NCBI RefSeq assembly: GCF_006345805.1
Contig: NC_043008.1
Location: 72,788,001 to 72,852,000 of the forward strand
DNA: 64,000 nt
From: Octopus sinensis
Lineage: Eukaryota
Reading direction: 5' to 3'
The position numbers and the translations under genes were made by a program. Positions 991 to 38,665 of this stretch are shown here, piece after piece (within the stretch, counting starts at the first letter, position 1; each line of letters starts with the position of its first letter). The notes below the pieces were generated by a model. The model saw only the letters and a list, made by a program, of their open reading frames with translations, did no database searches and was not told where the DNA came from.

Positions 991-1578
991 GGATATTGAA
1001 TGAAGTATCAATGTCATTTCTCCTCCATCAATGCAGGATAAAATTTACTGTTGCTGTTGTTTGGGAATTGGTTAGAATTGAACCAGTAGACTATTATGAA
1101 AGGTATTCTAGCTATGACCAATCTTATTCTTTATATAGGCATAATCTATATCTAAACAGGTGTCGTGTTCTTCTATGCTAAAACACCTGTTTCTGTCTCT
1201 GTCATACTCTAACCTCTCATCACCTAGCACAAATCTACCTCTCTCAATACTACTCCTATCTCAGTTGAGGGGTCATGCCTTGCAAGTTTCTTGGTGACAT
1301 CACTAGTGTCATGTAGAAAACACCCAGTACACACTGTAAAGTAGTTGCCATTAGGAAGGACATCCAGCTGTAGAAACAGACATGTAAGACTATCCAACCT
1401 TTATCAACATGGAAAGCTGATGTTAAAACATAATAGTGATGATATATCTAGAATTGATATTTTTGCTTCTTTAAGACAGTAGGACATAATTTAAGGGAGA
1501 TTTGACTGCTATTTTTAAAAGATCAAGTGATACATTATTTACATTTAACAGATATTTGTCCCCATCTTGTTTGTTGTT

Positions 1579-1624
1579 AACACAATGTTTCGGCTGATAT
1601 ACCCTCCAGCCTTCATCAGGTGTT
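1579..1624 (-). ncRNA. Minimal type-I hammerhead ribozyme
   Basis: Minus strand: aacac CTGATGA a ggctg-gagggtatat-cagcc GAA ACAT T gtgtt; stem I aacac/gtgtt, stem II ggctg/cagcc. Confidence 0.7.
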
Positions 1625-1690
1625 TGGGGAAATTTCGAACCAGGGTTCTCATTCCTAAGGTATTTTTCGATGCTATTATTATTATTATTA

Positions 1691-1730
<40 letters not shown>

Positions 1731-1796
1731 GGTCACTGCCTGGAATCAAACTCGGAATACCTTAGGAATGAGAGCCCAGATTCAAAATTTCCCCAA

Positions 1797-1843
1797 GACA
1801 CCTGATGAAGGCTGGAAGGGTATATTAGCTGAAACATTGTGTT
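1797..1843 (+). ncRNA. Minimal type-I hammerhead ribozyme (decayed mate)
   Basis: gacac CTGATGA a ggctg...tagct GAA ACAT T gtgtt; stem II carries G-U wobbles. Confidence 0.6.
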
Positions 1844-4659
1844 AACAAACAAGATGAGGACAAATATCCATCAAATGTAAATAATGTAAATAATGTACAT
1901 AATTCCTCATCTCTTAAATATAGAACTGTAGATCAACTGATGTTATGAACTTTCAGAAGAGGAAGAAACAAAAACTAATGCTTTTAAGACAGTTAGGTGA
2001 ACCTAAGTGAAATAAGGCAGTCATAATTAGATTTATGTAGTATGAGAATATATTAAGCTAATGGATAACTAACCACATGGTTACAAGTTCAAGTTTCACT
2101 ACAGCAAATGTGTAAAACAATATAGAACAAGGCACTGAGGTCTGTGTGGGTAAACAAAAACAGACATCTCTCCATACTTCACAGTTGACTAATTACTCTA
2201 TGAAAGGACATCACCCAGCTGTGAAGAACTATTTTCTGGTTGACCAGTTAGAAATCACATCTTGCTGTTTTAAAAAGAGAAAGAAACATAGTTTATTCTT
2301 AAGTAGGCTAGATTTTTAAATAAAGACAGGCTGGCCACAGAACATCTTCTCAGTCAGAAGAGCGGAACAAATAAATCATCTTCAGCATTGCTTGACATAT
2401 AGTTTTCATGCTGGCATGAGTTGGACAGTTTACTGAAGACAGCATCATGCACCAATATCTTCATTAGCTTGCTTTGTATAGTTGGATGCTTTTCATAAAA
2501 CCAACCACTTTAGAGAGTACACTGGGAGCTTTATTTCATGGCTCCAGCTTCATAAATGTGCAAAGTGACCTACATAACCAAAGGAGAACAGATAAGAGAG
2601 AAGCTGATTATTCTATGTGGAGTAATGAGGGAATGGTTAGTGAGAAGGGAGTCTGAGGGAGAGAGTAGAAGATAGGGATTAGTGACAGGGTTCAAAAGAA
2701 TGGAAGGGTAGAGTTAAGAAGGTGATAAAAAGGGTTGTGCATGGGAAAGGGGCTAAGGGTTATTCAAAATTCTAAGGAGCAAGTATGGACAGATGTTAAG
2801 GAAAGGAGACAGGAGGGGAGCAATAGACTTGGGTGGAAGGGAAATTTAGGTGAGTCACTGAAGTAAAGAAAGTCGTGGGTGGTAAGGTATGCAGGTGATT
2901 TACTGAGGGAAAAGGATAAAAAATGACAATAGGGCAGAGCAAAGGACCTGTGGTGTGTGTGTGTGGGGGGGGTGAATAGCTCTGAGACTCCTCTCACCAC
3001 TTTCATTTGTATTACATTTTTGGCAACAACATTTGTTATTTATGAGCTAAGCTAGACATAATTTAAAGTAAATCATTCTAAAATCAGAACTTGAAAAAAT
3101 ATTGCAAGTGTGATGTGCCACAAGCTCAATCAACCAGCATTTAAAAAAATGAAAAAGCAAGGTCTTCACAGTAATATTGAAAGACTGCTTTCTTAATAAA
3201 TGAAGATCATATATATAGATATATGTTCCTATGACATTCTCTTTGGAACATTTACTATAGTGATTCCAGTTGAGGAACAACCCATGATGAACACTACACC
3301 TTTGTTGTGGAATTTTCATGGAAGAATTCAAAGATGGTGTCTTAGAGCTTTTTTTTTTTTTAAGTGTGTTTTACAAGATACTATCTTGGTAGGTAGACAC
3401 AGACCAGTTCATCACATCTCCTTGTGTACTTAGAACATAAGGAGTTAAAGTAAAATACTATAAAACATTTTTACTCACTGCTTTAACAGTTTAACCAGTC
3501 CATCACTCTGGAACAGTTCCTTATTTTATTGACCCTAAAAAGATGAGAAGTAAAGTTGGCCTTGGCAGGATTTGAACTCAGAACAATAATAGGCAGAACA
3601 GACCCTGCAAGGCAAATTTGTGTGACACTTATAATTCTGCCAATTTACTACTTACATTTCCATTACATAGGACCAATATGAATGAAGCGTCTTTAGCAAT
3701 ATCTGTCTTAGCTAAAACTGCATCTGTGCAGTTTTAGAAACCAAAATGGGTTGGTTGGTTTGATAGGATCCTGTGGGTCCAGAAACTGCATTGTGCTCCA
3801 ATGTCTGCTTTGGTTAAGTTGGTGTAGTTGGATGCCCTTCCTAATGTGAACCAATTTACATTATGTGCTTGGTACTTTTCACATAGCACCAGCACCAGTG
3901 AGGTGGCTAATCAGTTTAGGGGCCTAAAAAACCAGAGAAGAGGAGCTTAAAGCTAGAAAATGAGGGTTAAGGTATGAAATGTGGGGACAGGCAGAGTGGA
4001 TTTGAGTTGTAGGGAAGATACTTGGTCACACCCATTTAGTTAGAAGTGAATTAGTAGTAGCTATAAAGAGATAAATAATGGTAAGGAGGTGTCCAGATGG
4101 CAACTCAAGGTACAAGCTGAACTGAAATGAGTGGGTACAGAGAAACTTGGAGTGGGTGGGAGTTTGCGAGAGTGAAGGAAGAAACTAATGGTTGAAGTAT
4201 ATTTGAAATAAATGTGATGAAACTATGAAATAAATGTATTTTTAGTAATGCGATCCCAATATATGTTGTATTGAAGTATGAGTTAGTTGGCGTCAGTCTT
4301 GGATATCAATACCTGAAATAAGGAGGGAGAGTTGAGTAGCAGAATGAATATCTAAGGAACATTTAGTTCCAGATGTTCAGATTATACTGGAGTGAACTTT
4401 GTCTTTTATTCTGTCATCTTGGATTTGGAAATTGATATCACTAACTTATGATTTTGAGACAATGACAAGAATGAGCTTAGAAGTCATCATTGTGGAAAGA
4501 CAGATAAAACTGACTATCATGTGAGGGTTCATACATGAAAAAGAGAAAGGTGAGATATATGAATGGTAATGAGGGTTATATTAGTAAAGGAATGCCATAT
4601 GATAGGTGAATATAGGGGTCAGTGATGAAGTCATTGGGTAGTTTTTTGCTTGTGTAGTG

Positions 4660-11841: not shown

Positions 11842-11849
<8 letters not shown>

Positions 11850-12566
11850 ATGAGGGTGTCTAAGAGACACCAACATGCCGAAATAGCAGTCGAAACTCTG
11901 ACTATAAAAACCACGTTAAGGGTTCGTGTCGCACCATGAGATAAGACAGGTAGACAAAATATACAAGCAAAAATTATTGAATAATTCAAGATCCAGGATT
12001 TCTGGTTTTGCTTTAAATAAGCTTTACCGTCATCGTTTGAATATATCAAGAGTACATAAATACAGATATATACATGCAGAACAAACGATATACTTACATA
12101 TACGAACGTCCATACATAAATACATATGCACGTATGCACGCGGCCAGTTAAATTACCCGCCGAATCATCCCAAAGTACGACACGGTTAAAATAAACACCG
12201 CAGTGAAAATAATAACGAATTATATATATTTATATATCGTTTGTTCTGCATGTATATATCTGTATTTATGTACTCTTGATATATTCAACCGATGACGGTA
12301 AAGCTTATTTAAAGCAAAACCAGAAATCCTGGATCTTGAATTATTCAATAATTTTTGCTTGTATATTTTGTCTACCTGTCTTATCTCATGGTGCGACACG
12401 AACCCTTAACGTGGTTTTTATAGTCAGAGTTTCGACTGCTATTTCGGCATGTTGGTGTCTCTTAGACACCCTCATTTTTAATTGTTAAAAATTATTACCT
12501 TTGTACGGTATTTTTCCCATGCTGGCCACTAGATAATATGGATACTTAAATATCGATATTATCCTC
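11842..12566 (+). mobile_element. PLE-type inverted-repeat insert in (TA)n
   Basis: Arms 11842-12092 and 12233-12483 (251 bp each, near-identical reverse complements), 140-bp spacer, tail 12484-12566, (TA)n on both sides, HHR in arms. Confidence 0.85.
12283..12341 (+). ncRNA. Type-I hammerhead ribozyme, CCGAUGA core variant
   Basis: attcaa CCGATGA c ggt..gc..gc..acc a GAAA TCCTGGA TC ttgaat; stem I attcaa/ttgaat; predicted AUC site at 12335. Mirror copy 11984-12042 (minus) has ACGATGA. Confidence 0.65.
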
Positions 12567-13215: not shown

Positions 13216-13264
<49 letters not shown>

Positions 13265-13300
13265 ATCAAAATAAAATAAAAACATGATGCGAAGGATTCA

Positions 13301-13378
13301 GCGGTACATATGTTTCGGGCCTTTATTAGACAGATTTATAACAATGCATAATGTATGTCTGTGGCCTTCTTCAGCCGC
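13301..13378 (-). ncRNA. Type-I hammerhead ribozyme (mirror of 15094-15171)
   Basis: Reverse complement of the plus-strand copy. Confidence 0.85.
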
Positions 13379-15093
13379 GCACAACAGCTTCCACAAGGAC
13401 ATGTGTTACATCAAAAATTCTTGGTTGGGGATGCAAATCCTCTCATTCACGTACGACATAATGCGGCAGCAGCATAGAGTTGAAGCGTCCATCTCTTTCT
13501 TCTCTCAATGTAGAATGAGGAAAATTGGATGTTGAGGTAATGTAAATAAATAAATACATATATAGAGGTGAAGATGGAGGGGCGAGAGTTCGGGACGAGG
13601 GATAAAAAATGTATAAAAAGTGTAAGTATAGAATAATATAAAAATGTAGAGGATGAAGGGTTGTAAGTAGATGTAAAAGGGGTATAAAGAAATATAAAGT
13701 AAAAATAGAAATAGAAATAAAAGTAAAAAAACCTGATAAAAACATGATAAAAGTGTAAAAGAATGTAAAGATAAGGGATGTATAGAGGTTATGGACCAAG
13801 CATTGTGGTCAGGAGATTGATAAAATTTAGTTGTAGAATTGTCAGTATATCAACAGTTTCGTCTGGGGACTTAATGCGTTGTAAATCAGAGCTGATGAGC
13901 ATTTAATCTGGTTCCTTGAATTAAATGGACTTCTAGTACATACATATCATCATGGATATATACACCCACATACACGCGTACATATACGCCTCCAAGCCTA
14001 TAAGCATACACACGCACTCGCGTGTAAACATGTACATAAACACACACGCACCCACACGCACGCGCGTACACACACATACATACAACAGAATATCCGCATA
14101 TATACACGGACATTACACGCGTACACGCTCACATGTATATACGCGCGCCCATCACTACATACACACCCATATATGCCCACGCCTCTAGGTCCAGGTATAA
14201 GATATTAAAGGATGTGTATAAGAACGTATGTAAAGAATCCGGGATTCTTTACATACGTTCTTATACACATCCTTTAATATCTTATACCTGGACCTAGAGG
14301 CGTGGGCATATACGGGTGTGTATGTAGTGATGGGCGCGCGTATATACATGTGAGCGTGTACGCGCGTAATGTCCGTGTATATATGCGGATATTCTGTTGT
14401 ATGTATGTGTGTGTACGCGCGTGCGTGTGTGTTTATGTACGTGTTTACACGCGAGTGCGTGTGTATGCTTATAGGCTTGGAGGCGTATATGTACGCGTGT
14501 ATGTGGGTGTATATATCCATGATGATATGTATGTACTAGAAGTCCATTTAATTCAAGGAACCAGATTAAATGCTCATCAGCTCTGATTTACAACGCATTA
14601 AGTCCCCAGACGAAACTGTTGATGTACTGACAATTCTACAACTAAATTTTATCAATCTCCTGACCACCATGCTTGGTCCATAACCTCTATACATCCCTTA
14701 TCTTTACATTCTTTTATACTTTTATCATGTTTTTATCAGGTTTTTTTACTTTTATTTCTATTTCTATTTTTACTTTATATTTCTTTATACCCCCTTTACA
14801 TCTACTTACAACCCTTTATCCTCTACATTTTTATATTATTCTATACTTACACTTTTTATACATTTTTTATCCCTCATCCCGAACTCTCGCCCCTCCATCT
14901 TCACCTCTATATATGTATTTATTTATTTACATTACCTCAACATCCAATTTTCCTCATTCTACATTGAGAGAAGAAAGAGATGGACGCTTCAACTCTATGC
15001 TGCTGCCGCATTATGTCGTACGTGAATGAGAGGATTTGCATCCCCAACCAAGAATTTTTGATGTAACACATGTCCTTGTGGAAGCTGTTGTGC

Positions 15094-15171
15094 GCGGCTG
15101 AAGAAGGCCACAGACATACATTATGCATTGTTATAAATCTGTCTAATAAAGGCCCGAAACATATGTACCGC
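15094..15171 (+). ncRNA. Type-I hammerhead ribozyme
   Basis: gcgg CTGAAGA a ggcc [41-nt insert] ggcc c GAAAC ATAT GTA ccgc; stem I gcgg/ccgc, palindromic stem III ACATATGT, predicted GUA site at 15167. Confidence 0.85.
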
Positions 15172-17599
15172 TGAATCCTTCGCATCATGTTTTTATTTTA
15201 TTTTGATCAATTTACTCCACCACCTACACCACCAAACGGTATACACAGGTGCTTATAATTATCAAGTACTCACCCCGAATTTCTATATATATATATATAT
15301 AGGCACATATGTCTGTATAGTGTTTTATTTAAACTAATCTGATGGTTACTTAGCCTGGAGATTCTGTGGTATATAACCAGTTCCAAGGACAAATCAACAC
15401 TGGGCAGAGAGAAACAAAACAGGATTCTGACAGCAGAAAAGAAAAGGAAAGAAAATGGGCAGAGGAATTACTCAACACATTCGTAATCCATTGGCTTAAA
15501 TTACAATCTGGCTTTGGTTTGGCAGGGAGCTGTGTTCTGAAGAAAGGAAAGAGAGTGGAAAAGAAAAAGAGAGTGAGAAAAAGATTATGTCAGTGCACAA
15601 CACACACACACATGCACACACAAATACATAGGTATGTACAGTGACACAGGTAAGCAGCCTTGTATGTCACCACTCTCTTTTCATCATCCATCTTTATTCC
15701 TATCCTTTACTTTCACATTCTCTTCCATCAATGTTATCACTTTACTTCCATTGTTCTCTTGGCCTTCATCCTCTCCCACTCCCTCCATTACTGTCTATAA
15801 TCTTTATCTATTCAGTCTTCTTACCAACAGCTGACATGTTGCTGCCTATAACAGTCTCTTCTATTTCTCTTCCTTACCACTCTCTCATTCCCATCACTGT
15901 TCCTCTTCCATTTCTATTTCCAAGCTACCCTCTCCCATCCCTGTCCCTCTTTGCTACCACCCTATCATCCTATTACTCTCTTTCTCTCTCCCATTATACA
16001 CATACTCTGTCACTCTTTCTGTCAAAACTACTCCTTCTCTTAGTAGAATATACCTTGAATGAACAATGAAAGCATGAAGTAGATGACTCTTTAGTCTTAC
16101 TGAAGATGTGATAATCTCTCTAGAGCAGGTGCCACAATGAAATATTTCTTGTACATACTATAAATTGTTTGACATTAGCAAGGACATCCAGGCACAGAAA
16201 TCATGCCAATCAGGGTACTGTGAGCCAGATGTGGTCCATCAAACTGTCTACAAAGACAGTAAGACTAAATAGAAACTGGCTCAGACTATGACAACCCATC
16301 CAAACAATGATAGCATTGAAAGCAAAAGCAGAATGATAACGATGATGATGATGATGATTGTTACTAATTTCGGTACAAGACCAGTCATTTTCAGTGTAAG
16401 GGGTTAGTTGATATCATCAAACCTAGTAATTGCTTGGTACTGTATTTTATTAACCCCAGTGAGATGAAAAGCGAAGTTGATCTGAGTGAAATTTGAACTC
16501 ATAACATGTAGGATCATAATCAAAAATACTATTCGATACTCTAATGATTCTACCAACTCACTACCTCATGATGATGATGATGATGATAATGATGATAATA
16601 ATGGTATATACATACATTATAATTTAGTTGTCAAATCCCGATAGAAAGTCTCATACATTGAGTAAAGTTGTTGAACATTTTCAATATTAATGGAATTTAA
16701 TTTCCACTGACACAAGATAAGAATGATGAGGTTTTGCAAGTTGATAAAATAAAATGCTCTAAATGACCATGTTTATCAGATATCTTATTACATGAGAAGT
16801 TGCTCTGAAATACAGTAAATGTGATAGAACTATAGTTTCAATGAGATGAATTATTACTGAATAACGATGGCTTTTCCAGATTATTAAACTTGCCATCTTT
16901 CTCTCAATAGACTCTCAAAAGATGAATTTAATAGTCTGGAAAAATACATTCTACTATATTATTAAAAGTTAGCAATTAAACTTGTACACTGATGTTATTG
17001 ATGATAGTGATCTGTACGTATAAGATAAATGGTTCCCGGTCACCAATGGATTTAAAAGTTAGTAAAACTAGTAGCCAAGTTGATGTCTTATTGGATTATT
17101 GACTTGAAGATCACCATTACAGGTGTTTTATAGTCTATGTTTAGCAGAATACTAAATTCTCTATGACCTAATGCACCTTGATATCACATTATCAAAGAAT
17201 TTTGTCTGAGACAACATACTTACCTTTCTTCTTTTACAATGCTGGTCCTTTTCACATCCACTCAAAATTATATACTTGGGTCTAATTACTGGCATTTTAA
17301 AGGACCTTGGGTTGTCATCATCATCATCAACATCATGATCATTTTACATATTTTCTATGCTGCCACAGGTGGGATGATTTGATAGGATTCAATGGATCAG
17401 AGGATCATGCTTTGCTCCAATATCTCACTTTTGGCATGGTTTCTGTAGTAGGATGGCCTTCCTAACACCAATCACTTTAAAGTGTGCACTGGGTGAATTT
17501 TCTATGGCAGCAGCACTATTGTGGTTACTTTGCTATCAGCAAGACTAAAAAGCCCTTTCAGGCCCTGCATTATCACTGTACAAATTGATTACCAATATA

Positions 17600-35204: not shown

Positions 35205-36440
35205 TATTGGGTCTTCTCATAGATAATGTGTTTTTTTCAATTGCATGAACTAAAAGTCGGACATGGATGGGATAAACTACCTGTGTCAACTTGCTATAAA
35301 AGCAGGTAGTAATTTTATTTTGTACTTATTCTTAGTGCAAATTGTGAAGAGTGCAGTTTGATTTTAACAGTTATTTTTTCAAAACTGTAATGGAAGTGAC
35401 AAAAGAGTGTATTTGGCATATTTTGCTTTATGAGTTCAATAAAGGCAACAACACAATGGAAAGTGTGAGGAATATTAATACAGTATACAAGCGTAAGCCA
35501 GTGTCAACAGTGGTTCCAGAAATTCTGAACCTGAAACTACAGCCTCAAATACAAGCTTCATCCTGGAAGATCTGTAGAGTTAAACGAGGAAGTCCTGCAA
35601 AACCTGGTGGAACAAAATCCCATCGTAACTGTTGAGAGACTAACAGAGAAGCTTGGATTTGGTCATCCAACCATTCATCGATACCAGCATGCCATTAGAA
35701 AGGTCAGCAAAATTGGCTGAATGGGTTCCTCACAAACTTTCCGAGTGTAATCGTGCAAAGATAGTGAATGTGTACTCTTCTTTGCTGTCTTGTCTCCTTT
35801 TTGGTGACAAGAAATGAGTTGTCTATAAAAACATCAGGCATGATGACAGTGGCTAGAGGAAAGAGACACACTGGCACTCCAGGCTAAAGATCTTCATCCA
35901 CATAAAGTGTTGTTATCTGTTTGGTGGGATATGAAAAGTTTAGTCCCCTTTGAACTTTTAAGCCCAAACCAAAAAGAGGTCTGCAGCAAGCAGCTTGAGT
36001 AGCTTAGGTCAGTGCTAAAAGAAAAACGACCATCTCTGGTTTCAAGACGAAAGGTATTTTTCCATTGGATAATGCTCGGCCTCATGCAGCAAGGACAACA
36101 TTCCAAAAGCTTGAGCAATTTGAATGGGAAACAATGCTCCACACACCATGTTCACCAGATATTGCCCCATCTGGTTATCATTTATTCTGCAGTCTTCAAA
36201 ATCATTTAGATGGGAAAAATGTGAATTTTGCAGACCAAGTCAGAACAGTACTGGAGGAGTATTTTTCATGATGTACAAGTGAATTTTGGAAGAGGGGCCT
36301 TGCAAGTCTACCAGATAGATGGAAAAGCATTGTAGAAAATGAAGGAGAGTATATTTTAGATTAAAAAAAGGGCTTTGTTTATCTTGATTTTAAAAAATAA
36401 AATAAGTAAAAAAGTGCATTATTTATGGGATGACCAAATA
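35205..36440 (+). mobile_element. Full-length decayed mariner transposon
   Basis: TIRs tattgggtcttctcatagataatg / cattatttatgggatgaccaaata with TA ends; transposase remnants ILLYEFNKG, WVPHKL, KVLLSVWWD, DNARPH, SPDIAPSGYHLF; stops and frameshifts. Confidence 0.93.
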
Positions 36441-36622
36441 TATATATACAAATTAGGTGGCTCTGTGTTAAGAAGGTTGCTTCTCAACCACATGGTTCTG
36501 GGTTAAGTTCCACTGCATGACATCTTGGGCAAGTGTTTTCTACTATAGCCTCAGGCCGACCAAAGCCTTGTGAATGGATTTGGTAAATTGAAACTTAAGC
36601 CCATCGTATATATATATGAATG

Positions 36623-36697
<75 letters not shown>

Positions 36698-36888
36698 ATA
36701 TATATATATATAGATAAGAAAGTTTGTTTGGTAAAGCACGTGGGTGAATATATAAGAAAATAGTAAAGTGTGAAAAAACGACAGAAGGCTTAAATGTTAA
36801 AAAATATATATATTTGTGTCAAAATGTCTGGAGAATATTGGAAAAATTTTTTTCCTTTCCTTAAAATGACATAATTTTAAAATTTTTA

Positions 36889-36928
36889 AAGAAATTACCG
36901 GTTTCGCGTGTAGCTTTTCAAATTTCTT
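36889..36928 (-). ncRNA. Minimal hammerhead ribozyme, U3-A8 variant (mirror)
   Basis: Reverse complement of 37512-37551. Confidence 0.75.
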
Positions 36929-37064
36929 GTGACGTTATGTTTATATTGCATGGAATTATCGTTGTTTTTATTTCCAGGAGATTTCTAAATAAGGGGAGGT
37001 AGTGAGTGATTTTTTCCGGTGTAGGGGAGATAATCGCTTAAAAAATTTTTTTTCCATTTCCTTG

Positions 37065-37220
37065 TTAATTTCTCTGTGTCAGTATGTTCGGATGGTTGAG
37101 TCTGGGTTTGTACTTTTCAATGAAGAATGTTTCCTTGTTCAGTCTCATTTGTGTTGATGATCCGAAAGCACATTGGTAAAATGGGAAGATTAAAAATTGT
37201 GGCAGTAGTTGCTTTGCGCA
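37065..37220 (-). pseudogene. C-terminal fragment of PLE GIY-YIG endonuclease
   Basis: Translates CAKQLLPQFLIFPFYQCAFGSSTQMRLNKETFFIEKYKPRLNHPNILTQRN*; R..KE..FI...KP.LN is the GIY-YIG C-terminal signature. The plus-arm copy has a 1-bp deletion. Confidence 0.8.
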
Positions 37221-37511
37221 TTGCGCAAAGCAACTACTGCCACAATTTTTAATCTTCCCATTTTACCAATGTGCTTTCGGATCATCAACACAAATGAGAC
37301 TGAACAAGGAACATTCTTCATTGAAAAGTACAAACCCAGACTCAACCATCCGAACATACTGACACAGAGAAATTAACAAGGAAATGGAAAAAAAATTTTT
37401 TAAGCGATTATCTCCCCTACACCGGAAAAAATCACTCACTACCTCCCCTTATTTAGAAATCTCCTGGAAATAAAAACAACGATAATTCCATGCAATATAA
37501 CATAACGTCAC

Positions 37512-37551
37512 AAGAAATTTGAAAAGCTACACGCGAAACCGGTAATTTCTT
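37512..37551 (+). ncRNA. Minimal hammerhead ribozyme, U3-A8 variant
   Basis: aagaaat TTGAAAA gc tacac gc GAAA CCGG TA atttctt; 7-bp stem I, palindromic ACCGGT, predicted GUA site at 37544. Confidence 0.75.
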
Positions 37552-37684
37552 TAAAAATTTTTAAATTATGTCATTTTAAGGAAAGGAAAAAAATTTTTCC
37601 AATATTCTCCAGACATTTTGACACAATATATATATTTTTTAACATTTAAGCCTTCTGTCGTTTTTTCACACTTTACTATTTTCT

Positions 37685-37739
<55 letters not shown>

Positions 37740-38059
37740 TCTATATCTGTTGGTCCCCACTGCTGCTTGACAACCAGTGGTGGTGTGTTTATCTCCCTGT
37801 AACTTCACAGTTTGGCAAAAGAGACCAATAGAATAAGCACTAGGCTTGAAAAAATTATAATTTCCTTGGGTCAATTTGTTCAAATAAAACCCTTCAAGGC
37901 AGTACCCCAGCATGGCCGCAGTCAAATGACTAAAGCAAATAAAAAGTAAAAGATACACACACACACACATATTTATAGATAAATTCCCCTATTTACATAA
38001 TATCAAGATCTCGTTCATTCTTTTGTTGTCATATTATTATTATTAATACACACACATAT

Positions 38060-38665
38060 TCTTTTAATTCTTTTATTCTTTCACTTGTTTCAATCACTTG
38101 ACTGAGGCCATGCTGGAGCACCGCCTTAAGTCGAACAAACTAACCCCAGGACTTATTTTTTGTAAACTTAGTACTTATTCTATCAGGCTCTTTTCCTGAA
38201 CATCTGTTGTCAAGCGATGGTGGAGAGACAAACACAGACACACAAATATATATATATATATGATGGGCTTCTTTCAGTTTCCATCTACCAAATCCACTCC
38301 CAAGGCGTTGATTAGCCAGAAGCTATAGTAGAAGGCAGCAAGCTGGCAGAAACGTTAGCACGCCGGGCAAAATGCTTCGCGGTATTTCGTCTGCCGTTAT
38401 GTTCTGAGTTCAAATTTTGCCGAGGTCGACTTTGCCTTTCATCCTTTCAGGGTCGATAAATTAAGTACCAGTTATGCACTGGGGTCGATATAATCGATGT
38501 AATCCCTATGTCCTTGTTTATCCCCTCTATGTTTAGCCCCTTGTGGGCAATAAATAAATAAGAAGCTATAGTAGAAGACACTTGCCCAAGATGTCATGCA
38601 GAGGGACTGAACCTGGAACCATGAGGTTGGGAAGCAAGCTATTTATCACACAGCCATATCTGCAC
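38060..38665 (-). mobile_element. SINE family A with nested family B SINE
   Basis: Family A sequence resumes after 38560. Confidence 0.85.
38334..38560 (+). mobile_element. tRNA-derived SINE, family B (young copy)
   Basis: tggcagaaacg A-box-like, gagttcaaatt B box, (TAAA) tail, 17-bp TSD agaagctatagtagaag (38318-38334, 38561-38577). Confidence 0.9.

What the first reader, a model, noticed from the sequence alone, without database searches (positions are those of the whole stretch)
36713..37692. Palindrome that ties the cassettes to Penelope: GIY-YIG C-terminus, 3' UTR, HHR, tail
Seen: from the 1-nt centre outwards each arm reads endonuclease C-terminus (…IFPFYQ…RLNKETFFIEKYKPRLN…*), about 135 nt of UTR, then an HHR. 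Only the left side has the 36-nt tail. This frame is absent from the ORF track. It is direct evidence of PLE origin; Naiad-clade affinity is my inference from the IFPFY and FI..KP.LN pattern.
Basis: partly seen in the sequence, partly recalled or inferred. Interest (0 to 1): 0.75.

Follow-up and report, generated by a model that had tools for sequence, protein, structure and literature searches.

The report
Head-to-head Penelope-like retrotransposon insertion
This 980-base palindrome is two front-truncated copies of a young, very abundant Penelope-like retrotransposon joined head to head in a TA microsatellite; it is a typical product of this element class, likely made in one integration event, and the element is not of the Naiad type.

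Summary
The palindrome is real: arms 36749-37220 (-) and 37222-37691 (+), centre 37221, about 99% complementary, with a 36-nt tail (36713-36748) on the left only and (TA)n on both sides.

The left arm reads the intact last 51 residues of an 811-aa RT-endonuclease frame. That frame is open in 12 of the 56 copies scored in this 2.7-Gb genome. The right arm has a 1-nt deletion that breaks the frame after RLNKE.

The C-terminal domain is a GIY-YIG nuclease. 48 of 64 relatives hit PF01541, a profile of relatives finds the left arm at E 4.9e-12, and a pLDDT 89.5 model best matches I-TevI and UvrC.

The nuclease is C-terminal, behind a CX4CxxC linker and a CCHH motif, and the RT has DKG and GxKF. The element is therefore a canonical, Neptune-type Penelope-like element (PLE), not a Naiad.

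The "HHR" is not found by Rfam. It is a PLE-type minimal hammerhead with a U3-A8 core, conserved in a sister family with different helices. Cleavage is untested.

Head-to-head pairs with one tail are the rule here: 13 of 16 pairs, and 8 of 9 in the sister family. This is a known PLE hallmark, so the finding is ordinary. The other "cassettes" in the window share only the architecture, not sequence.

The parts
36692..36712 (.). (TA)n of the target microsatellite, left flank, preceded by (ATCT)n
   Evidence: Sequence read directly.
36713..36748 (-). 36-nt 'tail' (on the element's strand TTCACCCACGTGCTTTACCAAACAAACTTTCTTATC), AC-rich, present on this arm only
   Evidence: The same 36 nt end one arm of 13 of 16 head-to-head pairs elsewhere. 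In full-length copies it lies between the 3'-end repeat and the 5' region.
36749..37064 (-). 3' UTR of the left (minus-strand) copy
   Evidence: 99.6% identical to a full-length copy (L033).
36889..36928 (-). Hammerhead-like motif of the left arm: helix I AAGAAAU/AUUUCUU, core UUGAAAA (U3-A8), helix II GC/GC, GAAA, loop CCGG, U-A, then the predicted cleavage site
   Evidence: 80.7 bits with the model built from family copies, which match by construction.
37065..37220 (-). Stop codon (37065-37067) and intact last 51 codons (37068-37220) of the RT-endonuclease ORF
   Evidence: The endonuclease profile of 117 relatives gives E 4.9e-12. tblastn with P0001 matches residues 755-811.
37221..37221 (.). 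Centre of the palindrome. It reads as the last base of the minus-strand arm, so the 5' ends of the two copies are joined bluntly, one base out of register, with no filler.
   Evidence: compared with longer copies.
37222..37376 (+). The same ORF end on the right (plus-strand) copy. It is broken by a 1-nt deletion (after RLNKE) in an A run; stop TAA at 37374-37376.
   Evidence: (E 7.5e-07 and 0.069 for the two frame pieces).
37377..37691 (+). 3' UTR of the right copy. It ends in ...CTATTTTCTTATAT without a tail and runs into (TA)n.
37512..37551 (+). Hammerhead-like motif of the right arm, identical to the left one
37692..37709 (.). (TA)n of the target microsatellite, right flank, followed by (GT)n

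Best explanation
The palindrome is two 5'-truncated copies of one Penelope-like retroelement (PLE) family joined head to head inside a (TA)n microsatellite. It was likely made in a single integration in which both cut strands of the target primed reverse transcription, one from each of two start sites 36 nt apart.

Shown:
- Each arm is the last ~470 nt (end of the GIY-YIG endonuclease ORF plus the 3' UTR) of a ~3.9-kb element.
- The element encodes an ORF1 and an 811-aa RT-endonuclease frame.
- The family is young (copies about 99% alike) and very abundant.
- Head-to-head pairs with directly abutting 5' ends, a (TA)n target and a tail on exactly one arm recur at many loci, and also in a sister family.
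- The nuclease is C-terminal with a CX4CxxC linker and CCHH, which is the Neptune type.

Inferred, by analogy with the in-vitro work on the Anolis Poseidon element (PMC11167929):
- The protein nicks both strands of the AT-rich target.
- Each 3'-OH primes a cDNA on element RNA, at the proximal site (...CUUAUAU, no tail) or the distal site (after the tail).
- Both cDNAs stop early and their ends are joined.
- In this copy both stopped within one base of each other, possibly because both ran off the same broken RNA.

The fragment cannot encode a nuclease, because the GIY, YIG, R and H parts are missing. The 3'-UTR motif is predicted to be a dimer-dependent minimal hammerhead with a U3-A8 core. 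Its cleavage is untested.
For: Identity:
- The arm has at least 1648 first-look candidates in the genome; the 40 scored gave 42 matches, 41 of them near full length (1-470/471 of 471 nt) at 98-100% identity.
- L032:3588-6020 gives an 811-aa open frame ending in the window's peptide.
- 12 of 56 scored protein matches cover residues <=13-811 without a stop.
- RVT_1 scores E 2.9e-07, above Pfam's cut-off.

Nuclease:
- 48 of 64 relatives hit PF01541 at E<=0.01 (best 5.4e-10), and 56 of 64 hit RVT_1.
- 53 of the 120 listed relatives carry a precomputed PF01541 hit.
- The profile of 117 relatives picks the left arm at E 4.9e-12 among 2113 six-frame pieces; the next unrelated piece scores 0.15.
- The AlphaFold model has pLDDT 89.5 and the order b1-b2-a1-a2-b3-a3.
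- The 15 best distinct Foldseek entries (listed ranks 1-19) are all GIY-YIG nucleases: I-TevI at E 5.7e-03, probability 1.00, TM 0.67 on the target, then UvrC, T4 EndoII, Hpy188I and Eco29kI.

Architecture:
- 25 head-to-head junctions were found in 35 non-redundant loci, with arms -8 to +44 nt apart.
- Of the 16 with both ends readable, 13 have one tail, 2 have two tails (in both, one arm is the upstream repeat of a full-length copy), and 1 has none.
- In the sister family, 8 of 9 -/+ pairs have one tail.
- By my arithmetic, P(>=13 of 16) is 0.011 even at the most favourable independent odds of 0.5.

Literature:
- An inverted 5'-truncated copy and a 30-40-bp tail at one end are described PLE features (PMC8557442, passages).
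- The protein cleaves and extends both strands, reverse transcription starts at two adjacent internal sites, and the tail is the stretch between them (PMC11167929, main text).
Against: - No contig from four public runs bridges the centre of this locus; the data were short contigs only.
- P0001 itself does not reach PF01541 at E<=1, and no Foldseek match reaches E<=0.001.
- In the in-vitro study the two start sites were used alike on both strands, so the strict one-tail pattern seen here is not explained by that work.
- 5 of 25 pairs have arms truncated within 19 nt of each other, far more than independent stops would give. Some coupling (a shared template, or another mechanism) is therefore needed.
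- The tail sits on the longer arm in 6 pairs and on the shorter arm in 4, so no simple order of events follows.
- The two arms differ at 4 positions. These could be later mutations, RT errors or assembly errors.
Confidence: 0.82

Rival explanations
1. One cDNA, snap-back origin. A single target-primed cDNA folded back on itself or switched template onto itself, and the second arm is a copy of the first rather than a second reverse transcript.
For: 5 of 25 pairs, this one included, have almost equal arms. The junctions mostly lack filler.
Against: - 20 of 25 pairs are unequal by 146-3145 nt.
- If the first cDNA were always the longer arm, the tail should always sit on the same kind of arm. It sits on the longer arm in 6 pairs and the shorter in 4.
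- At this locus the TGCGCA hexamer is present on both sides of the centre. Priming through that palindromic hexamer would have left one copy of it (my reading).
Confidence: 0.1
2. Two independent insertions of the same family into one (TA)n microsatellite in opposite orientation.
For: (TA)n is the preferred target, and neighbouring insertions of other PLE families into the same microsatellite do occur (L093 and L100).
Against: The 5' ends abut with no (TA)n between them and are truncated at the same base +/-1. The same direct junction recurs at 25 loci, and the one-tail pattern is non-random.
Confidence: 0.03
3. Assembly artefact or later inverted duplication. A single truncated copy was mirrored by a chimeric read or by replication error.
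For: Palindromes are a known failure mode of assemblies. No contig laid here crosses the centre. The three differences between the arms are 1-nt deletions in A runs, as sequencing errors often are.
Against: The two outer ends differ (tail vs none) and lie in different unique flanks, which a mirror artefact would not give. The same architecture with other breakpoints is found on many contigs and in a second family. It is also described for PLEs in other genomes (PMC8557442).
Confidence: 0.04
4. The element is a Naiad-clade PLE.
For: It targets (TA)n, has no canonical hammerhead by Rfam, and has a CX2-5CxxC plus CCHH nuclease like Naiads. A 3946-bp Naiad family from an octopus is listed in the supplement of PMC8557442, close to the 3943 bp measured here.
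Against: - The nuclease lies at the C-terminus in this element and in 121 of 121 aligned relatives.
- It has DKG, not DKA, and no CxC upstream of GxKF.
- ORF1 has no GIY-YIG hit.
- The printed Naiad protein has other motifs.
- The paper says cephalopod Naiads are old remnants, whereas this family is about 99% uniform.
Confidence: 0.01

Closest known systems
Neptune-clade Penelope-like elements (canonical, C-terminal GIY-YIG)
   Same: RT followed by a C-terminal GIY-YIG nuclease with CCHH. A CX2-5CxxC zinc-finger-like motif (here CX4CxxC) is followed by a long linker of about 29 residues before GIY, as in the Neptune rows of Fig. S2 of PMC8557442. GxKF and DKG motifs, a (TA)n target, pseudo-LTR with inverted truncated copies, a tail, and a hammerhead-type motif near the 3' end.
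   Different: The clade was not tested by phylogeny, because no labelled reference sequences could be brought into the tools. The hammerhead core is U3-A8 with a 2-bp helix II. The RT-nuclease frame has no ATG of its own and follows an ORF1 of 392-451 aa.
Poseidon element PAc of Anolis carolinensis (PMC11167929)
   Same: It offers a mechanistic model for the tail and for two-ended insertions: both target strands are cut and extended, AT-rich targets are preferred, reverse transcription starts at two adjacent internal sites in an AC-rich region, and the tail is the stretch between them. Here the tail is AC-rich and bracketed by two similar motifs, TTTCTTAT(A/C)TATAT.
   Different: It belongs to a different clade, which has no linker zinc finger. 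In PAc the start sites showed no homology to the target, whereas here both are followed by UAUAU, which could pair with a cut (TA)n (my inference). In vitro both sites were used on both strands, whereas here the two arms of one insertion nearly always differ.
Naiad PLEs
   Same: The nuclease sequence type (CX2-5CxxC plus CCHH), the (TA)n preference, inverted/tandem insertions with a tail, and no canonical hammerhead.
   Different: Naiads have an N-terminal nuclease, a CxC domain, DKA and usually an IFD. Of these, position, CxC and DKA were tested here and not met.
PLE minimal hammerheads with a U3-A8 core (Cercyon elements of Schistosoma; PMC4209133)
   Same: Type I layout, G10.1-C11.1 pair, 1-bp helix III with a palindromic loop (CCGG) that would allow a dimer, location in the terminal repeat or 3' UTR, and U3-A8 in place of C3-G8 (passages).
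   Different: Helix II here has only 2 bp, whereas the Schistosoma motifs have 7-8 bp. The sister family has 4 bp. There is no activity data.
L1 twin-priming inversions (recalled, no paper read)
   Same: Both strands of the target serve as primers, which gives an inverted structure with 5' truncation.
   Different: In L1 the two arms are different parts of one RNA. Here both arms start at the element's 3' end, so two passes or two templates are needed.

Membership tests
Penelope-like elements (canonical EN+) | Reverse transcriptase with the PLE N-terminal motifs GxKF/Y and DKG | tested here: met
   KGLKF and EADKG are present in the 811-aa frame. RVT_1 scores E 2.9e-07, 30.9 bits against a cut-off of 29.6. 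56 of 64 relatives hit RVT_1.
Penelope-like elements (canonical EN+) | C-terminal GIY-YIG endonuclease with a CCHH motif | tested here: met
   C..C lies between IYV and YVG, followed by H in ..H.QQ and S.H. P0001 itself is below Pfam's reporting limit.
Penelope-like elements (canonical EN+) | Pseudo-LTR / partial tandem, inverted 5'-truncated copy, and a 30-40-bp tail at one end | tested here: met
   The features are defined as described in PMC8557442.
Penelope-like elements (canonical EN+) | RT groups with PLE RTs in a phylogeny | not tested
   No labelled reference sequences could be used in the tools. The relatives found bear no clade names.
Neptune clade | CX2-5CxxC zinc-finger-like motif with a full-length linker before GIY; Nematis has a reduced linker and Penelope/Poseidon has none | tested here: met
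   The sequence reads KCGRSNCATC, about 29 residues, then NIIYVIKC. C35, C40 and C43 are invariant in 122 sequences. Compared by eye with the Fig. S2 rows.
Naiad clade | GIY-YIG endonuclease N-terminal to the RT | tested here: not met
   The nuclease block ends the protein in this element and in 121 of 121 relatives, with a median of 577 aa before it and 0 after. ORF1 has no GIY-YIG hit.
Naiad clade | CxC motif upstream of GxKF/Y, and DKA in place of DKG | tested here: not met
   There is no Cys in the 75 residues before GxKF, and DKG is present.
Naiad clade | Insertion-in-fingers domain (IFD) between RT3 and RT4 | not tested
   No reference alignment was available.
GIY-YIG nuclease superfamily (the 51-aa peptide itself) | GIY and YIG strands, catalytic R, E and N | tested here: inconclusive
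   Full-length copies have all of these. The window's fragment keeps only strand 3, helix 3 with E (NKE) and the N of P.LN, so it is a remnant and not a domain. On its own it gives no Pfam hit.
Hammerhead ribozyme (type I) | Core CUGANGA ... GAAA with C3-G8, three helices, H at position 17 | tested here: inconclusive
   GAAA, helix I (7 bp), helix III (A-U with CCGG loop) and H17 (A/C/U in 8 variants) are present, but the core has U3-A8 and helix II has 2 bp. Rfam finds nothing. Within the family, covariation is not significant (69 of 500 shuffles reach it). With the sister family added, 94.2% of cells pair against 36-56% when the register is slid, and 0 of 500 shuffles reach the score; that alignment was fitted to the model.
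Hammerhead ribozyme (type I) | Self-cleavage | not testable with these tools
   This needs an in-vitro assay.

The most novel reading that the evidence does not exclude
PLE integration is an obligately two-ended, coordinated reaction. Within one insertion, the cDNA on one target strand starts at the proximal site and the cDNA on the other strand starts at the distal site, which gives the one-tail rule: 21 of 25 pairs across two families, with 3 of the 4 exceptions at pseudo-LTR junctions and one pair tailless. A fifth of events copy one broken RNA twice to its end, giving near-perfect palindromes. Two young families, with at least 1648 first-look candidate copies of the arm and 2078 exact motif hits respectively, would make this genome a natural record of reaction products from which the still unknown second half of the PLE integration mechanism could be read.
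Probability: 0.3. Interest if true: 0.55.

Novelty: new member of a known kind. Interest (0 to 1): 0.3.

Why it matters
For annotation, the locus is a dead, non-coding fragment pair of an active-looking Penelope-like family. It should be masked as such and not read as a gene, a microRNA hairpin or a Naiad.

More broadly, PLEs are the least understood class of retrotransposons. Here are two very young families with many open reading frames, a (TA)n target, a conserved U3-A8 hammerhead variant and hundreds to thousands of head-to-head products. They offer material for testing the two-start-site, two-strand integration model proposed from one in-vitro system. They could also test whether U3-A8 minimal hammerheads cleave at all.

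Tried and rejected
- Rfam at three thresholds on the window, the region and a full-length copy lists no hammerhead. The best hit on the region is mir-883 at 41.4 bits against a gathering score of 85, across the palindrome centre. That is the hairpin itself, not a microRNA.
- PDB sequence searches with the protein and two profiles give no GIY-YIG hit.
- The first structure prediction, with a 5-sequence alignment, had pLDDT 41.8 and was unusable.
- Sequencing runs: 24 were listed, with no RNA holder on record. Four were laid and held only short contigs. None of the listed pieces bridges 37221 or a flank junction. The skips of about 1.2 kb have sides of only 21-26 nt in highly repeated flanks and were not taken as empty sites. 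One run guessed to be RNA holds element contigs, but transcription is not shown.
- Folding the tail region as RNA gives -8.6 kcal/mol, z -1.5, which is not distinctive.
- Earlier notes of this scan: none exist for this genome.
- A search for copies of the arm, of the full element or of its protein elsewhere in the window finds only the two arms.
- A stricter hammerhead descriptor (helix II >=3 bp) finds nothing in the window.
- The clade could not be settled by a tree because labelled references could not be used.
- Literature: the figures of PMC8557442 are not held, so which clade carries the ORF1-frameshift layout was not seen. Only the outline and abstract of the 2026 retrozyme preprint were read.

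Full report
WHAT IS THERE

The region 36713-37692 holds a near-perfect palindrome.
- Four collinear inverted blocks run from 36748-37220 against 37222-37691 at 99-100% complementarity, with one unpaired base at 37221.
- blastn of one arm against the window finds only the arm itself and its mirror (99.15% over 473 columns).
- The arms differ at four places. The right arm lacks single As opposite 37132, 36942 and 36815, all in A runs, and has one substitution (36878 vs 37562).
- Other copies of the family agree with the left arm at the three indel sites.
- Outside the left arm lie 36 further bases (36713-36748) that the right arm lacks. Both ends then run into (TA)n.

THE CODING PIECE

- On the minus strand the left arm reads 51 residues, CAKQLLPQFLIFPFYQCAFGSSTQMRLNKETFFIEKYKPRLNHPNILTQRN, followed by a stop.
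- The right arm reads the same up to RLNKE and then changes frame because of the missing A.

THE ELEMENT IT COMES FROM

- The window lies in a 2.7-Gb genome. The arm has at least 1648 first-look candidates there; the 40 scored gave 42 matches, 41 of them near full length (1-470/471 of 471 nt) at 98-100% identity.
- Longer copies carry an 811-aa open frame that ends in the window's peptide (L032:3588-6020).
- 12 of 56 scored protein matches cover residues <=13-811 without a stop.
- The frame has RVT_1 above Pfam's cut-off and the PLE motifs GxKF and DKG.
- Comparison of copies gives a unit of about 3.9 kb. It consists of a 5' region with an ORF1 of 392-451 aa, the RT-nuclease frame, and a 3' UTR of about 315 nt.
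- The RT-nuclease frame has no ATG in its first 190 residues. In one copy it follows ORF1 in frame after a TAG. In another it overlaps ORF1 by 175 nt in the -1 frame. I did not resolve which is the working arrangement.

IS THE PEPTIDE GIY-YIG?

- Alone, the 51 residues and even the whole protein give no PF01541 hit at E<=1.
- The relatives do. 446 proteins match at E<=1e-5. Of the best 120 listed, 53 carry a precomputed PF01541 hit.
- In my own scan of 64 of them, 48 hit GIY-YIG at E<=0.01 (best 5.4e-10).
- I built a profile from the nuclease block of 117 relatives, with the four closest dropped. It finds the left-arm frame at E 4.9e-12 among 2113 six-frame pieces of the window, and the two right-arm pieces at 7.5e-07 and 0.069. 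The next piece scores 0.15.
- With a 122-sequence alignment, the last 172 residues fold with pLDDT 89.5 into b1-b2-a1-a2-b3-a3.
- The 15 best distinct Foldseek entries (listed ranks 1-19) are all GIY-YIG nucleases, led by I-TevI (E 5.7e-03, probability 1.00, TM 0.67 on the target). None reaches E<=0.001.
- Language-model features agree.
- The window's peptide corresponds to the end of helix 2, strand 3 (IFPFY), helix 3 with the catalytic Glu (NKE) and the final Asn (P.LN). The GIY, YIG, Arg and His parts are missing. It is a remnant, not a working domain.

WHICH KIND OF PLE

- The nuclease is at the C-terminus in this element and in 121 of 121 aligned relatives, two of which are cut short.
- Upstream of GIY there is KCGRSNCATC (CX4CxxC; three invariant Cys) and a linker of about 29 residues. 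The CCHH positions are present.
- According to PMC8557442, CX2-5CxxC marks Neptune, Nematis and Naiad, the linker is reduced in Nematis and lost in Penelope/Poseidon, and Naiad nucleases are 'essentially indistinguishable from Neptune' (passages and sections 11-12).
- The Fig. S2 rows seen show the long linker in Neptune and a short one in Nematis.
- The Naiad-defining features are an N-terminal nuclease, CxC, and DKA for DKG. All three were tested and not met.
- The same paper states that Naiads in cephalopods are old remnants. The Naiad protein printed in its supplement has other residues where this element has IFPFY and FI..KP.LN.
- I therefore file the element as a canonical, Neptune-type PLE, with the clade untested by phylogeny.

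THE HAMMERHEAD

- Rfam finds none at any threshold.
- 136 nt after the stop lies AAGAAAU-UUGAAAA-GCUACACGC-GAAA-CCGG-UA|AUUUCUU. This has helix I of 7 bp, helix II of 2 bp, and a 1-bp helix III with a palindromic loop. The core has U3 and A8 where the consensus has the C3-G8 pair.
- The block is the best conserved part of the UTR in older subfamilies that are 71-90% identical. Position 17 is A, C or U in the eight variants. Two variants have U3-G8. One has compensatory changes in helices I and II.
- On these eight sequences alone covariation is not significant: 69 of 500 shuffles reach it.
- A sister PLE family (about 50% protein identity) has the same UUGAAAA ... GAAA-CCGG-UA with entirely different helices (GGUC/GACC, CAG/CUG). 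It has 2078 exact pattern matches against 2 for the reversed control.
- With both families aligned to a covariance model, 94.2% of cells pair against 36-56% in slid registers, and 0 of 500 shuffles reach the covariation score. That alignment is fitted to the model and holds only two lineages.
- A U3-A8 covariation in PLE minimal hammerheads, dimer-dependent and poorly active in vitro, is described for Schistosoma (PMC4209133, passages).
Its activity is untested, and the in-vitro study found the hammerhead dispensable for insertion.

HOW THE PALINDROME AROSE

- Mapping 35 non-redundant loci onto a full-length copy gives 25 head-to-head junctions. The arms are -8 to +44 nt apart (mostly 1-3 nt of overlap) and the truncation points vary. 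I removed loci that repeat the same genomic place.
- Of the 16 junctions with both outer ends readable, 13 have the tail on exactly one arm. Two have it on both, and in both of these one arm is the short upstream repeat of a full-length copy. One has none.
- In the sister family, which has its own tail of about 35 nt, 8 of 9 -/+ pairs taken by coordinates have one tail. I did not check that their arms abut.
- Even at the most favourable independent odds, 13 or more of 16 has probability 0.011 (my arithmetic).
- 5 of 25 pairs, including this one, have arms truncated within 19 nt of each other.
- The tail is AC-rich and lies between two similar motifs, TTTCTTAT(A/C)TATAT. In full-length copies it is followed by TATATAT and the 5' region.
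- All this matches the published description of PLE insertions: an inverted 5'-truncated copy and a tail at one end (PMC8557442).
- It also matches the in-vitro finding that a PLE protein cuts and extends both strands and starts reverse transcription at two adjacent internal sites that delimit the tail (PMC11167929).
- My best account is one integration event with two cDNAs, one per strand and one per start site, joined at their prematurely ended 3' ends. In this copy both may have run off the same broken RNA. These steps are inferred.
- The tail sits on the longer arm in 6 pairs and on the shorter in 4. That speaks against a simple snap-back of one cDNA.

THE 'CASSETTES'

- The window holds other head-to-head insertions in microsatellites. 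A PLE-type hammerhead descriptor gives 4 hits in the window, against 0.04 in shuffles. Two are in this palindrome and two are in a second one at 13258-15214.
- That second unit belongs to another family, about 99% uniform, with at least 1768 candidates. It is a fixed palindrome with the same breakpoints in 12 of 12 loci and has no ORF.
- None of the other units shares detectable sequence with the element studied here.
- The present palindrome therefore ties them to PLEs only by shared architecture: inverted pair, microsatellite target, one-sided extension, minimal hammerhead.

VERDICT

- The PLE and GIY-YIG reading is right, and the Naiad inference is wrong.
- The structure is a textbook PLE insertion of a young, abundant family. 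It is a new member of a known kind and of modest interest.
- The most interesting residue is the strict one-tail rule and the excess of equal arms, which the published in-vitro work does not explain.

Noticed in passing
window 13258-15214: A second large palindrome: arms of about 980 nt, 98% complementary, centre at 14241, between (AT)n and (TA)n. Each arm has a canonical-core hammerhead-like motif (CUGAAGA ... GAAA-CAUAUG-UA; 15094-15171 + and 13301-13378 -), and only the right side has an extension of about 70 nt. Its family has at least 1768 candidates at about 99% identity. It is a fixed palindrome with the same breakpoints in 12 of 12 loci and has no ORF, so the palindrome itself seems to be the mobile, non-autonomous unit.
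   Followed up: partly
window 11842-12483: A third palindrome: 261-nt arms, 98% complementary, 120 nt between them, with (TA)n on its left. It has no protein similarity to the PLE and was not analysed further.
   Followed up: no
window 1531-1660 (-) and 1760-1890 (+): An inverted pair (88.6% over 132 nt) around an (ATT)n run. Each arm has CUGAUGA-(6-bp helix II)-GAAAC, which is hammerhead-like but without a palindromic loop 3. Rfam does not report it.
   Followed up: partly
L070 (G000:C1:182077512-182080540) and about 130 other places: Retrozyme-like units of about 360 nt in tandem and head-to-head arrays inside (TA)n. They carry a canonical hammerhead, CUGACGA-GAGG..CCUC-GAAA-CCGG-UC. The pattern count is 63+69 against a control of 12+13. 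They share only the GAAA-CCGG-U part with the PLE's motif.
   Followed up: partly
L093:2424-3750 (-), L104-L133: A sister PLE family (protein about 50% identical) with the same U3-A8 core but other helices. It has 2078 exact motif matches, its own tail of about 35 nt, and the same one-tail pattern in 8 of 9 -/+ pairs.
   Followed up: partly
L046:322-1500 and L031 (minus strand): The RT-nuclease frame has no ATG in its first 190 residues. An upstream ORF1 (392 or 451 aa, no Pfam hit) either ends in a TAG directly in frame with it or overlaps it by 175 nt in the -1 frame. This suggests read-through or frameshifting.
   Followed up: partly
proteins P0028, P0042, P0056, P0070, P0080: Close relatives of this animal retroelement protein are filed in public databases as bacterial proteins of bivalve gill symbionts (for example 'GIY-YIG nuclease family protein'). 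This is probably host DNA binned into symbiont genomes, a problem PMC8557442 warns about.
   Followed up: no
window 37177-37264: A sub-threshold Rfam match to mir-883 (41.4 bits, gathering score 85) straddles the palindrome centre. It is an effect of the perfect hairpin, not evidence of a microRNA.
   Followed up: yes
window 36440-36600 and 37740-37860: The flanks of the insertion are themselves copies of very highly repeated short elements, with summed contig depth up to millions in the runs laid. The pair at 36538-36598 and 38273-38333 is 82% complementary.
   Followed up: no
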